Of a stretch of 64,000 nucleotides of DNA, positions 18,001 to 21,000 are shown piece by piece. The DNA is from Escherichia coli (GTDB taxonomy: Bacteria; Pseudomonadota; Gammaproteobacteria; Enterobacterales; Enterobacteriaceae). Every line of letters starts with the position of its first letter. Position 1 is the first letter of the stretch. Location of the stretch: the NCBI RefSeq assembly GCF_003334765.1, contig NZ_QOWT01000005.1; one strand, given 5' to 3'. Position numbers: made by a program.

Positions 18001-21000
18001 ACAATTCATAGCCAAACGGCGGCGCAACGGAAACGGTGCCGCGATTTTTACTGATCAATTTAAGCCATTGCAGAGGACGCATGGCAAAATCCTGAGTGCG
18101 CAAATAATCTACTGAGAGTTGCGTGGCGACGGGGGTCAGGAGAAAGCCGACCAGTCCCATATCATGGTAGAAAGGCAGCCAGGAGACGCAGCGGTCGCCA
18201 GGGCGTAATTTTATGCCATCGTGGCTTATAGCACGTAGATTAGCCATCACTTCGCGATGGGTGATAATGACGCCACGGGGAAAACGGGTGCTGCCGGAGG
18301 TGTACTGGAGGTAGGCGATATCGTTCGGAACTGGACGCTGGAGCGCAACATCGGCTTCCGGTAATGCCTTAAACCAGGCGTGGCTTAAAACATGTAATTC
18401 GGGGTTGTTGTTATGCGTCGCGGCATTGACCAGTGGCAACCACTCATCACCAGTGATAATGGCTGCGGGCTGGCAACTTGCCAGTAAACCCTGCAGCTTG
18501 CCGCTCCAGGAATCCCGCTGACCGACGCCCATGGGAATCGCCAACGGGACGGCGACTAAGCCGGCATACTGGCAGGCAAAAAAAGCCTCTACGAACCCGC
18601 TACTGGTTTCGGCAATCAGTGCCACGCGATCGCCTTTTTTCAGGTTTAGCGATAACAACCGCTTCGCACCAGCTTCGGCACGCGCTTTTAACGTCTGATA
18701 TTCCAGTTGATCTTCAAGTTGGCAACGTCTGTCATAAAAATTCATTCCAGCGCTACTCAGAGCGGCATAGTCCAAAGCATCAACCAGCGTTGGAAAATCG
18801 GCATAGCGCATAGGTAGGGAATGCGTAAAGATTTTATTAGACATATACACCACGAAAAAATTGGATATCAAAAATAAAATGACAATAATGCGGTGGATTA
18901 TATAGGCATAAAAGATAAATGAGATAGTATTTTCATCAGTGTGAAAATGAACATTGATTTAAATAATGAATTTGAGTTTTTTGTTTTTATTGTGAATGAT
19001 ATTTAATTTATGAATATATTAAGAAGGAGCCTTGTCCGGTCGCCTTAAATCGACAAAAGGCATTGTGGCGCTTCTGTGTAGTCTCTGACCTTATCGTAAT
19101 CATTAATAAATACTATTTATTCGTCGTTTGTATTCATTGGGTTGATTATTAAGGTGCCGTTCGTTGCTGTTGCAACCTGTTTGTCACCGTTAATTATTTG
19201 TTACCCACAGAACTATGGAATGCGATCTGCTGATGATTAAAATTGAAAAAGTAATTAATAAAAATGACCTTAAGGCATTTATCGCTTTTCCGTCATCACT
19301 TTATCCCGACGATCCAAACTGGATACCCCCTTTATTCATTGAACGCAACGAGCATTTGTCTGCGAAAAATCCGGGGACGGACCATATCATCTGGCAGGCG
19401 TGGGTGGCAAAAAAAGCGGGGCAGATAGTTGGGCGTATTACCGCGCAAATAGATACCTTGCACCGCGAGCGTTACGGCAAAGATACCGGTCATTTCGGCA
19501 TGATTGACGCCATTGATGATCCGCAGGTTTTTGCCGCGTTGTTTGGCGCAGCGGAAGCGTGGTTGAAGTCACAAGGTGCAAGTAAGATCAGCGGGCCTTT
19601 CAGCCTGAATATCAATCAGGAAAGCGGATTACTGATTGAAGGTTTTGACACTCCGCCCTGTGCGATGATGCCACACGGCAAACCGTGGTATGCCGCGCAT
19701 ATTGAACAACTGGGTTATCACAAAGGCATTGATTTACTGGCGTGGTGGATGCAGCGAACCGATCTCACTTTCTCTCCGGCGCTAAAAAAACTGATGGATC
19801 AGGTGCGCAAAAAAGTGACCATTCGCTGCATCAATCGCCAGCGGTTTGCCGAAGAGATGCAGATCCTGCGTGAGATTTTCAATTCTGGCTGGCAGCACAA
19901 CTGGGGATTTGTGCCGTTTACCGAACATGAATTCGCGACCATGGGCGATCAACTTAAATATCTGGTGCCGGACGATATGATCTACATCGCTGAGATTGAT
20001 TCTGCACCCTGCGCGTTTATTGTCGGCTTGCCAAACATCAACGAGGCGATTGCCGATCTGAACGGATCGCTCTTTCCCTTCGGCTGGGCAAAATTGCTGT
20101 GGCGTTTAAAAGTCAGCGGTGTGCGAACTGCGCGAGTACCGCTGATGGGCGTGCGGGACGAGTATCAGTTCAGCCGCATCGGCCCGGTGATTGCGTTGTT
20201 ATTGATTGAAGCCTTACGCGATCCGTTTGCCCGCCGGAAGATCGATGCGCTGGAGATGTCATGGATCCTCGAAACCAATACAGGCATGAATAACATGCTG
20301 GAACGCATTGGGGCAGAGCCGTACAAGCGTTACCGATTGTATGAAAAGCAGATTTAATACCAGATCCTGTTAAGCGCAGGGGCGATCCCTCGCCCCTCGG
20401 GGAAAGGGTTAGGGTGAGGGTGAAAACTCGGCTCACATTCCCACCTTGTTCATCTCCAGCGGCACCGCCGAGCGAATCAAATGGTGGCCTTCCAGCTCGA
20501 TATCGTGGAGATTCTTTTTCACGGTCCGCACATGATCGCGTGCTGCGCGCTGGGCGACGTGCGGCAGCCGCTGCAACACCGCGTTGTAGATCCGCGCATG
20601 CTGGCGATCGATCTGCTTTTTTTGCTGTGGTCGATGGTAGAGATTATTTACGCTGGCAAACACTGAATTAAACATCAGATCGGTCAATGATTGCAGCGTA
20701 AACACCAACACCTGATTGTGAGAAGCCTGACAAATGGCGAGATGGAAAGCGTGATCCAACTGCGCATGTTCGATCAGCGAAATCTCTTTGTTGTTCTCAC
20801 TGGCGGCGAGCATTTTTTCATAACAGCGGGTTATCACAACAAAATCAGCCTGGGTTCCCAGCGTTGCCGCCAGCCTTGCCGATTCACCCTCCAGCAATGC
20901 GCGAACGTCGAGCAGATCGTACAGCGTTCGCGGCTGCGTACTGAACAGATGGATCAGCGGGCTGGTGTCCTGCACCCGATTAAGCCGTGCGACACGAGAA

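What the first reader, a model, noticed from the sequence alone, without database searches (positions are those of the whole stretch)
18872..19214. AT-rich divergent control region likely to govern expression of the lipid operon
The 340-bp spacer between the ligase gene and yghO is markedly AT-rich relative to the flanking coding sequence. In enterobacteria this is typical of nucleoid-protein (H-NS-type) silenced horizontally acquired promoters, so the system may be cryptic under laboratory conditions.
Basis: inference. Interest (0 to 1): 0.3.

Follow-up and report, generated by a model that had tools for sequence, protein, structure and literature searches.

The report
Control region of E. 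coli ceramide genes
This AT-rich spacer is the shared, still uncharacterised promoter region between the two divergently transcribed halves of E. coli's known sphingolipid (ceramide) synthesis gene cluster; it is an ordinary kind of feature, and the proposed H-NS silencing is plausible but unproven.

Summary
The spacer has 31.8% G+C, against about 50-53% in the flanking genes, and the two genes do diverge. The boundaries need correcting. The ligase starts at the ATG at 18844, not at the TTG at 18871 or at PGAP's 18811, so the spacer is 18845-19214, or to 19232 if yghO starts at its conserved Met7.

The flanking genes are known. The ligase is aasR, first gene of aasR-epi-acpR-spt, and yghO is the N-acyltransferase (aca). 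Together they form the published E. coli B/UTI89 dihydroceramide cluster, which K-12 lost through an IS5-linked deletion.

The AT-richness is not exceptional. Three other promoter spacers in the same window have 29-32% G+C. The genes have native G+C, so composition does not point to recent foreign origin.

The spacer has two parts:
- A 92-bp aasR-proximal block (18845-18936) is about ten times more conserved than nearby synonymous sites. It holds the only perfect -10 hexamer.
- The remaining ~280 bp is hypervariable, with three allele classes, one of them shared with a cryptic Escherichia clade.

No strong sigma-70 promoter, RNA family, conserved ORF, stable RNA fold or H-NS high-affinity motif was found. 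H-NS silencing remains a reasonable but untested inference. Interest is low to moderate.

The parts
18845..19214 (.). Divergent intergenic control region between aasR and yghO (extends to 19232 if yghO starts at Met7)
   Evidence: Sequence; G+C 0.318-0.325; no feature annotated in any of about 4,140 E. coli genomes; no Rfam match; no conserved ORF.
18845..18936 (-). Block A: ultra-conserved aasR-proximal module, the likely core promoter, operator and 5' UTR of aasR-epi-acpR-spt
   Evidence: 4.3% variable columns and mean pairwise difference 0.018 among 9 Escherichia sequences, against 0.145 and 0.245 at 4-fold sites of yghO and aasR. At least 95% identical in all but one of 4,146 genomes.
18897..18902 (-). 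Only perfect -10 hexamer (TATAAT) in the spacer; its -35 is poor (ATCTCA, 17-bp spacing). The predicted start near 18890 would give a 5' UTR of about 45 nt
   Evidence: Position-weight scan, score 6.46, the best in the spacer but below the shuffle mean of 7.9 +/- 1.25. Lies inside invariant block A. The promoter assignment is inferred, not shown.
18937..19214 (.). Hypervariable AT-rich module with conserved islands (18947-18968, 18984-19022, 19091-19117, 19157-19170, 19189-19205); presumed yghO promoter/operator region and candidate nucleoid-protein platform
   Evidence: 46.8% variable columns, mean pairwise difference 0.204. Three allele classes among E. coli genomes: 3,594 at >=95% identity, 483 at 80-90%, 26 at 60-80%. 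Alignments.
19023..19090 (.). G+C-richer (about 0.41) central segment, the fastest-evolving part
   Evidence: 70.6% variable columns, mean pairwise difference 0.31, maximum 0.60; composition; single copy per genome.
19105..19121 (.). Perfect palindrome AATAAATA-C-TATTTATT inside a conserved island; candidate operator
   Evidence: the repeat finder pair I6, 8-nt arms, 100% complementary. Arms kept, centre base varies in type-I alleles; partly lost in type-II alleles. Function is inferred.
19189..19203 (+). ArcA-box-like direct repeat GTTAATTATTTGTTA (lead only)
   Evidence: 13 of 15 matches to a consensus recalled from memory, reached by 2% of shuffles, but 20 motifs were tested so it is not significant. 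The second repeat is conserved in all alleles.
19165..19181 (+). FadR-like 17-mer containing the 8-bp palindrome GTTGCAAC (lead only)
   Evidence: 12 of 16 matches, reached by 1% of shuffles, not corrected for 20 tests. Removed by a 7-bp deletion in type-II alleles. Also flagged as a terminator-like hairpin.
17120..18844 (-). aasR, specialised acyl-ACP synthetase (fatty acyl-AMP ligase), 574 aa, start corrected to 18844
   Evidence: NCBIfam NF006624, 871 bits against a cut-off of 600. N-terminus conserved across genera. Ortholog of ECD_02851 (PMC9386255). Intact in the window.
16209..17123 (-). epi (cerR-type NAD-dependent epimerase/dehydratase-family reductase)
   Evidence: PGAP annotation. 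Only sub-threshold SDR family hits. Ortholog of ECD_02852. ATGA overlap with aasR.
15929..16177 (-). acpR, specialised acyl carrier protein
   Evidence: Acyl carrier protein hits, all below the curated cut-offs; ortholog of ECD_02853.
14757..15929 (-). spt, serine palmitoyltransferase
   Evidence: NCBIfam NF047599 equivalog, 599 bits against a cut-off of 500; ortholog of ECD_02854.
19215..20357 (+). yghO (aca; proposed sphinganine/3-oxosphinganine N-acyltransferase); alternative conserved start at 19233
   Evidence: PGAP 'protein YghO'. Named aca = yghO = ECD_02850 in PMC9386255. No Pfam or NCBIfam match. Met7 start supported by other genera.

Best explanation
The spacer is the shared 5' regulatory region of two divergent transcription units that together encode dihydroceramide synthesis in E. 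coli. One unit is aasR-epi-acpR-spt, read leftwards. The other is yghO (aca), read rightwards.

It has two modules:
1. A 92-bp aasR-proximal module (18845-18936) is held almost invariant across Escherichia. It most likely carries the aasR core promoter (perfect TATAAT at 18902-18897 with a poor -35), any operator, and a short 5' UTR with a weak GGTG ribosome-binding site.
2. A fast-evolving AT-rich module of about 280 bp holds a few conserved islands, including the palindrome at 19105-19121. It most likely carries the yghO promoter and operators.

The promoters and ribosome-binding sites look weak, and the DNA is 68% A+T. Basal expression is therefore probably low under laboratory conditions. 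It would be kept low either by AT-dependent binding of nucleoid proteins (H-NS/StpA) or simply by the absence of an activating signal.

Shown: position, composition, divergent orientation, conservation pattern, gene identities.
Inferred: promoter positions, low expression, any role of H-NS.
For: - Divergent orientation and gene identities.
- Arrangement conserved in 41 of 44 related loci, with the spacer always less G+C-rich than the genes.
- Block A is about 8-13 times more conserved than neighbouring 4-fold sites, and at least 95% identical in all but one of 4,146 genomes.
- Conserved islands sit inside a hypervariable background.
- No alternative content was found: no Rfam family, no conserved ORF, no RNA fold signal (z -1.0 and -0.2).
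- Promoter matches are weak.
- BL21(DE3) with empty vectors showed none of the sphingoid compounds seen on over-expression, while the cloned E. coli aasR, acpR and spt genes are functional: PMC9386255.
- AT-tract metrics match the other low-G+C spacers of the window.
Against: - No transcription start, reporter, ChIP or hns-mutant data exist for this spacer in what I could search.
- The best promoter score is below the average best score of shuffled spacers, so the promoter assignment could be wrong.
- The H-NS high-affinity motif is not enriched.
- The flanking genes have native G+C, unlike classical H-NS-silenced islands.
- The authors of PMC9386255 suggest that chromosomal epi and yghO may be active in BL21, which would argue against complete silencing.
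Confidence: 0.6

Rival explanations
1. Classical xenogeneic silencing. H-NS (with StpA/Hha) polymerises over the AT-rich spacer and occludes both promoters. The ceramide pathway is then cryptic until a counter-silencer or an environmental cue such as temperature or osmolarity relieves it.
For: - 68% A+T over about 390 bp, with eleven A/T-only runs of 8 bp or more and 21% of 10-mers having at least 9 A/T.
- The hypervariable upstream spacer resembles the H-NS-bound class reported in PMC4720273. There, median diversity is 0.013-0.019 against about 0.005 for unbound spacers, and ybdO-dsbG reaches 0.134.
- gss, next to a similarly AT-rich spacer in this window, is listed as H-NS-bound.
- BL21 controls showed no detectable sphingoid compounds.
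Against: - The genes on both sides have native G+C, and the locus is widespread in Escherichia, so it is not a recent AT-rich island.
- There is no good match to TCGATAAATT.
- AT-richness of this degree is shared by ordinary promoter spacers here and by the homologous spacers of 41 other species.
- There are no direct data.
Confidence: 0.4
2. An ordinary regulated promoter region, controlled by one or more specific transcription factors that answer to envelope, redox or fatty-acid signals rather than by nucleoid proteins. The conserved islands are their operators.
For: - Discrete conserved islands sit in a variable background, including a perfect 8+1+8 palindrome.
- There is an ArcA-like direct repeat and a FadR-like site.
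- Block A is too conserved for a mere AT-rich platform.
- Weak core promoters are typical of activator-dependent genes.
- Other genera carry a different conserved box, AAAAGCATTAAGTGGTAAAA, at a fixed distance from yghO. This shows that specific cis-elements exist in this spacer family.
Against: - The motif matches are not significant after correction for 20 tests, and they use consensus sequences recalled from memory.
- The FadR-like site is deleted in type-II alleles, and the palindrome is degraded there.
- No regulator gene lies in the cluster.
Confidence: 0.35
3. A decaying locus. The pathway is dispensable in E. coli, and the variability of the spacer simply reflects relaxed constraint on its way to loss.
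For: - K-12 lost the operon, the spacer and the 5' end of yghO through an IS5-linked deletion.
- aasR carries an internal stop in strain DA33135, and yghO in O145:H28 RM12581.
- About 24% of complete genomes lack the spacer.
- The central segment evolves faster than synonymous sites.
Against: - Block A is about ten times more conserved than synonymous sites.
- All five genes are intact in the window.
- The cloned E. coli aasR, acpR and spt are functional.
- First and second codon positions vary far less than third positions (0.057 against 0.34-0.41), which indicates purifying selection on the proteins.
- The most divergent allele is shared at 95.3% with another Escherichia lineage, which points to old haplotypes or introgression rather than recent decay.
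Confidence: 0.1
4. The spacer hides an unannotated small gene, either an sRNA or a micro-protein. One candidate is the 12-codon ORF MKILSHLSFMPI on the aasR strand, 18936-18898, which coincides with the far end of block A.
For: The boundary of block A falls exactly at the ATG of this small ORF (read). Block A is conserved far more than a typical promoter.
Against: - There is no Shine-Dalgarno sequence before that ATG.
- The two substitutions seen inside it are both non-synonymous, and all three codon positions are equally invariant, which points to a DNA- or RNA-level constraint.
- There is no Rfam hit and no fold signal.
- Nothing is annotated here in about 4,140 genomes.
- The ORF would lie upstream of the only good -10 element.
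Confidence: 0.05

Closest known systems
Sphingolipid (dihydroceramide) gene cluster of Caulobacter crescentus and E. coli BL21(DE3)/UTI89 (aasR, acpR, spt, epi/cerR, aca/bCerS; PMC9386255; bioRxiv 10.64898/2026.04.12.717747)
   Same: The window carries the same five genes in the same order as ECD_02850-ECD_02854, with LptF/LptG paralogues upstream. The spacer studied here is the one between ECD_02851 (aasR) and ECD_02850 (yghO).
   Different: Those papers deal with the enzymes and the transport proteins. In what I could search, none of them describes the promoter region, its conservation pattern or its regulation.
H-NS-bound, fast-evolving upstream spacers of E. coli, e.g. ybdO-dsbG (Higashi et al. 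2016, PMC4720273)
   Same: An AT-rich region upstream of genes whose sequence diverges far more between strains than its flanks. Alleles here differ by 0.10-0.28 over the whole spacer, against an average distance of 0.134 for ybdO-dsbG.
   Different: H-NS occupancy was measured for ybdO but not here. This spacer is absent from K-12 and so from their tables. This spacer also contains an ultra-conserved 92-bp block.
H-NS/StpA-repressed yghJ(sslE)-pppA-yghG-gsp type II secretion promoter, 11 kb downstream in the same window (recalled from memory: Yang et al. 2007, J Bacteriol; not checked here)
   Same: Comparable spacer length and composition: glcA-sslE is 483 bp at 0.32 G+C, with ten A/T-only runs of 8 bp or more.
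   Different: That spacer is tandem, not divergent. Its regulation was established experimentally; this one's was not.
Horizontal regulatory switching: replacement of promoter regions by recombination while the flanking genes stay conserved (recalled from memory: Oren et al. 2014, PNAS)
   Same: There are discrete, deeply divergent spacer alleles between near-identical genes. The rare E. coli allele is 95.3% identical to that of Escherichia sp. E1V33.
   Different: Only part of the spacer is switched; the aasR-proximal 92 bp is not. No expression difference between alleles has been measured.

Membership tests
H-NS-silenced xenogeneic promoter region | A+T content well above the genome average over at least about 200 bp | tested here: met
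   G+C 0.318-0.325 over 370-388 bp, against 0.497 for the window.
H-NS-silenced xenogeneic promoter region | Lies in or next to a horizontally acquired island of AT-rich genes | tested here: not met
   aasR 0.53, epi 0.54, spt 0.52 and yghO 0.50 G+C. The locus is in 4,133 of 5,426 complete E. coli genomes and in other Escherichia species.
H-NS-silenced xenogeneic promoter region | High-affinity nucleation motif (TCGATAAATT-like) | tested here: not met
   One site with two mismatches in the spacer (19005-19014). Window-wide there are 94 hits, against 74 +/- 10 expected.
H-NS-silenced xenogeneic promoter region | H-NS occupancy in vivo and derepression in hns mutants | not testable with these tools
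   No dataset covering this spacer was found; K-12 lacks the region.
Divergent sigma-70 promoter region | Lies between two genes transcribed away from each other, with no other gene between them | tested here: met
   The arrangement is conserved in 41 of 44 related loci.
Divergent sigma-70 promoter region | Recognisable -35/-10 elements on each strand | tested here: inconclusive
   The consensus scan gave one weak hit inside the spacer (two in the 18600-19500 region scanned), no more than shuffles give. The best PWM score of 6.46 is below the shuffle mean of 7.9. There is one perfect TATAAT on the aasR strand with a poor -35.
Divergent sigma-70 promoter region | Mapped transcription start sites | not testable with these tools
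   No transcription-start data for a locus-carrying strain were found.
Rhodobacteria-type dihydroceramide synthesis cluster | Serine palmitoyltransferase directly preceded by a specialised ACP gene | tested here: met
   spt hits NF047599 at 599 bits, against a cut-off of 500. An 82-aa ACP lies immediately upstream with overlapping stop and start codons.
Rhodobacteria-type dihydroceramide synthesis cluster | Specialised acyl-ACP synthetase (AasR) and epimerase/dehydratase-family reductase in the same operon | tested here: met
   AasR hits NF006624 at 871 bits, against a cut-off of 600. Epi gives only sub-threshold SDR hits but carries the PGAP name. The orthologues ECD_02851 and ECD_02852 are named in PMC9386255.
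Rhodobacteria-type dihydroceramide synthesis cluster | N-acyltransferase (aca/bCerS) homologue | tested here: inconclusive
   yghO is equated with aca (CC_1154) in PMC9386255, but it matches no Pfam or NCBIfam model. I did not align it with the Caulobacter protein.
Cis-regulatory RNA (riboswitch or leader) | Match to a curated RNA family, or a fold more stable than shuffled sequence | tested here: not met
   No Rfam match up to E = 1, and only chance-level hits up to E = 10. Fold z-scores are -1.0 and -0.2. The homologous leaders of 14 species give no consensus structure.

The most novel reading that the evidence does not exclude
The spacer is a two-part regulatory switch that keeps a complete ceramide synthesis and export pathway silent in most E. 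coli. An invariant aasR promoter module is coupled to a yghO-proximal module that exists as ancient haplotypes shared across species. In Escherichia that second module has replaced the conserved AAAAGCATTAAGTGGTAAAA-box regulation found in other Enterobacterales. Different E. coli lineages would then switch on sphingolipid production under different, host-related conditions, with H-NS as the default silencer.
Probability: 0.2. Interest if true: 0.55.

Novelty: new member of a known kind. Interest (0 to 1): 0.25.

Why it matters
E. coli is the textbook Gram-negative bacterium without sphingolipids. Yet about three quarters of complete E. coli genomes carry an intact ceramide synthesis cluster with LptF/G-like transporters, and the cloned E. 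coli aasR, acpR and spt genes are functional. When, or whether, wild E. coli makes these lipids is unknown, partly because K-12 lacks the locus.

This 370-bp spacer is where that decision is made. Correct gene starts, an invariant 92-bp module and defined allele classes give concrete targets for reporter, ChIP and allele-swap experiments.

As a sequence feature, however, it is an ordinary AT-rich divergent promoter region.

Tried and rejected
- **Rfam.** Searches of the spacer, of its 4.5-kb surroundings and of 16 homologous loci found nothing real.
- **RNA folding.** Folding both presumed leaders gave no signal, and RNAalifold on 14 homologous yghO leaders predicted no pairs.
- **Small ORFs.** None in the spacer is conserved, either here or in the longer spacers of Serratia and Shimwellia.
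- **Promoter and terminator scans.** The tool's consensus scan and my own PWM scan found no promoter better than shuffled sequence gives.
- **H-NS 10-mer.** Not enriched.
- **Transcription-factor and sigma-factor consensus scan.** I tested 20 consensus sequences recalled from memory. Only the ArcA-like and FadR-like sites stood out, and neither survives multiple-testing correction. Fur, CRP, FNR, PhoB, PhoP, sigma-E and sigma-54 were all at chance.
- **Spacer similarity outside Escherichia.** Only a weak 63% match to Pseudocitrobacter over 157 nt.
- **Relic of the cross-genus box.** I suspected that the E. coli segment AAAAGGCATTGTGG was a relic of the AAAAGCATTAAGTGGTAAAA box. nhmmer does not support this.
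- **Literature.** ETEC H10407 ChIP-seq has no H-NS table and no CRP site near the locus. The Higashi 2016 tables cover only regions shared with K-12. Locus-tag and keyword searches found no expression or regulation data.
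Full report
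**Observation**

The stretch 18872-19214 is non-coding. It lies between a minus-strand fatty acyl-AMP ligase ORF and plus-strand yghO.
- Its G+C content is 0.318. The window averages 0.497, the ligase 0.531 and yghO 0.497.
- The lowest 200-bp value is 0.28, at 18800-18999.
- Only 6.2% of 343-bp windows in the 64 kb are as AT-rich, and those cluster in about eight places.

So the description is correct. The degree of AT-richness is not special, though.
- The gss-pitB (0.29), yghT-yghS (0.30) and glcA-sslE (0.32) spacers of the same window are equally low. Their A/T-run statistics are similar.
- In 41 homologous loci from other species, the spacer is always 6-27 G+C points below its flanking genes. 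The mean is 15, and here it is 20.

**Boundaries**

- The N-terminal peptide MS(N/E)xxxTHSLPMRYADF is conserved from Escherichia to Serratia, Pantoea and Pseudomonas. The ligase therefore starts at the ATG at 18844, preceded by a weak GGTG ribosome-binding site. PGAP's start at 18811 has none.
- yghO is annotated from 19215. In other genera only its Met7 (ATG at 19233) is conserved, and there it is preceded by TAAGG. E. coli has no clear Shine-Dalgarno sequence before either ATG.
- The spacer is therefore 18845-19214, or 18845-19232.

**What the flanking genes are**
- The window is E. coli chromosome, running from hyb through pitB, yghTSRQ and the glc and sslE-gsp genes to kps.
- The minus-strand operon is ligase, epimerase/dehydratase-family protein, acyl carrier protein and serine palmitoyltransferase. 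Its genes have overlapping or closely spaced stops and starts.
- NCBIfam confirms spt (NF047599, 599 bits against a cut-off of 500) and the ligase (NF006624, 871 against 600).
- Padilla-Gómez et al. 2022 (PMC9386255) describe exactly this cluster in E. coli BL21(DE3). They name the genes aasR (ECD_02851), epi (ECD_02852), acpR (ECD_02853), spt (ECD_02854) and aca = yghO (ECD_02850). They show that the cloned E. coli aasR, acpR and spt together make 3-oxosphinganine.
- A 2026 preprint shows the same locus in UTI89 and assigns the adjacent LptF/LptG paralogues to sphingolipid transport.
- yghO itself matches no Pfam or NCBIfam model.
- K-12 lacks the operon, the spacer and the first ~40 nt of yghO, with an IS5 at the junction. 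This explains the absence of regulatory data.
- The spacer is present in 4,133 of 5,426 complete E. coli genomes.

**Anatomy of the spacer**

No Rfam family matches. No ORF in it is conserved. Neither presumed leader folds better than shuffled sequence, with z-scores of -1.0 and -0.2.

Promoter prediction is weak.
- The tool's consensus scan found one marginal hit inside the spacer, no more than shuffles give.
- My position-weight scan gave a best score of 6.46, below the average best score of shuffled spacers (7.9 +/- 1.25).
- That best hit is the only perfect TATAAT (18902-18897, minus strand). Its -35 is poor, and it would give a 5' UTR of about 45 nt for aasR.

Comparison among strains is more informative.
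- Across five E. coli strains and four other Escherichia genomes, the 92 bp next to aasR (18845-18936) are almost invariant. Variable columns are 4.3% and mean pairwise difference is 0.018.
- Four-fold degenerate sites in the same genomes differ by 0.145 in yghO and 0.245 in aasR.
- In the population, this block is at least 95% identical in all but one of 4,146 genomes.
- The remaining ~280 bp are hypervariable, with 46.8% variable columns and mean difference 0.204. The G+C-richer centre (19023-19090) reaches 0.31.
- The flanking coding sequences differ by only 1-5 positions per 60 nt.
- E. coli genomes fall into three allele classes for this part: 3,594 at 95% or more, 483 at 80-90% and 26 at 60-80%.
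- The rarest allele (strain APEC37) is 95.3% identical to that of Escherichia sp. E1V33. It is therefore an old haplotype shared across species, or an introgression.
- Conserved islands persist inside the variable part: 18947-18968, 18984-19022, 19091-19117, 19157-19170 and 19189-19205. One of them holds a perfect palindrome, AATAAATA-C-TATTTATT, at 19105-19121.

**Regulators**

A scan with 20 transcription-factor and sigma-factor consensus sequences, recalled from memory, gave two leads.
- An ArcA-like direct repeat at 19189-19203 matches 13 of 15 positions, a score reached by 2% of shuffles.
- A FadR-like site at 19165-19181 matches 12 of 16, reached by 1% of shuffles.

Neither is significant after correction for 20 tests. 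The FadR-like site is deleted in type-II alleles. Fur, CRP, FNR, PhoB, PhoP, sigma-E and sigma-54 were all at chance.

**H-NS**

For H-NS binding:
- The spacer is 68% A+T over about 390 bp, with many A/T-only runs.
- The fast evolution of an upstream spacer fits the pattern Higashi et al. 2016 report for H-NS-bound spacers. There, median diversity is 0.013-0.019 against about 0.005 for unbound spacers, and ybdO-dsbG reaches 0.134.
- gss, next to a similarly AT-rich spacer in this window, is listed as H-NS-bound.
- BL21 controls showed no detectable sphingoid compounds.

Against:
- There is no good TCGATAAATT site.
- The genes have native composition and are widespread in the genus.
- The authors of PMC9386255 suspect that chromosomal epi and yghO are active.

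No direct data were found. H-NS silencing is therefore a reasonable hypothesis, at roughly 40%, and not a finding.

**Other genera**

The divergent arrangement is conserved in 41 of 44 loci recovered with YghO. These include Shimwellia, Citrobacter, Pluralibacter, Pseudocitrobacter, Serratia, Tatumella, Klebsiella indica, Erwinia, Rosenbergiella, Rahnella, Cedecea, Hafnia, Pantoea, Sodalis and two Pseudomonas. Spacer lengths run from 271 to 1,095 bp.
- The Escherichia spacer has no detectable similarity to them, apart from a weak match to Pseudocitrobacter.
- Twenty of the 27 spacers examined outside Escherichia share a box, AAAAGCATTAAGTGGTAAAA. In most of them it lies about 310-335 nt upstream of yghO.
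- A profile search does not find this box in Escherichia.
- No RNA family or consensus structure accompanies it.

Escherichia thus appears to have remodelled the regulation of this locus.

**Verdict**
This is the divergent control region of a known lipid (ceramide) gene cluster, and low laboratory expression is plausible. The 'horizontally acquired, H-NS-silenced' reading is untested and only circumstantially supported.
- The feature is an uncharacterised member of an ordinary kind.
- The useful additions are the corrected gene starts, the invariant 92-bp module, the allele classes and the cross-genus box that Escherichia lacks.

Noticed in passing
window 17120-18871 (aasR start); window 19215-19233 (yghO start): PGAP starts the ligase at 18811, but the conserved N-terminus places the start at the ATG at 18844. 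yghO's annotated first six codons are not conserved outside Escherichia, where Met7 (19233) follows a TAAGG Shine-Dalgarno sequence. E. coli has no clear Shine-Dalgarno sequence before either yghO ATG.
   Followed up: yes
L013-L052, about 310-335 nt upstream of yghO (e.g. L018:3675-3694, L044:3678-3697): A conserved non-coding box, AAAAGCATTAAGTGGTAAAA, sits in the homologous spacer of 20 of the 27 spacers examined outside Escherichia. It comes with an upstream block TAAACAGTAnCCGGAAG...AAAAGTGAA. In most of them it lies at a near-constant distance from yghO. nhmmer does not detect it in Escherichia. It has no Rfam match and no consensus RNA structure, and its function is unknown.
   Followed up: partly
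window 18940-19214; L005, L009, L012: The rare, most divergent E. coli spacer allele (26 genomes, e.g. APEC37) is 95.3% identical to the allele of Escherichia sp. E1V33 and 87% identical to that of strain SCPM-O-B-8794. The flanking genes meanwhile stay about 97-98% identical. This is either a trans-species haplotype or promoter-region introgression.
   Followed up: partly
window 11982-14722: Upstream and convergent with spt lie a YtfJ-family gene and paralogues of lptF and lptG, preceded by yghQ (flippase-like) and a hypothetical gene. A 2026 preprint assigns the Caulobacter counterparts to sphingolipid export. The window thus seems to hold a complete synthesis-plus-transport locus.
   Followed up: partly
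window 20358-20432: A 75-bp G+C-rich (0.61) insert with a GGGGCGATCCCTCGCCCC hairpin lies between the convergent ends of yghO and glcC. It is present in the window strain and in DA33135. It is absent from four other E. coli strains and from K-12, where the two genes are 6 bp apart. It is probably a small repeat element.
   Followed up: no
L001/L003 17123-18811 (strain DA33135); L007 2016-3158 (O145:H28 RM12581); L002 (K-12): The pathway is broken in some lineages. aasR is annotated with an internal stop in DA33135, although that strain's spacer is 100% identical to the window's. yghO has an internal stop in O145:H28 RM12581. K-12 has the IS5-linked deletion from yghQ into yghO. All five genes are intact in the window.
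   Followed up: partly
window 15929-16177 and about 16000-16300: The acpR gene has only 0.41 G+C, which creates a second AT-rich dip inside the operon. Whether an internal promoter for acpR-spt lies there was not examined.
   Followed up: no
window 46800-54100 and 62100-62600: These long stretches have 25-35% G+C. They lie in the capsule (kps) region, downstream of the gsp genes. Here the window diverges strongly from strain DA33135 (86-94% identity, then no alignment). Unlike the finding, this is a genuinely AT-rich, strain-variable island.
   Followed up: no
L051 (NZ_SDSC01000040.1, 430 bp): A 430-bp contig in a 'Macrococcus sp.' assembly encodes YghO residues 6-148 at 99% identity to E. coli. 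This is almost certainly contamination of that assembly.
   Followed up: no
L013 and L036 (Shimwellia pseudoproteus): This species has two yghO homologues on different contigs, at 83% and 74% identity. Only the first lies next to the aasR operon.
   Followed up: no
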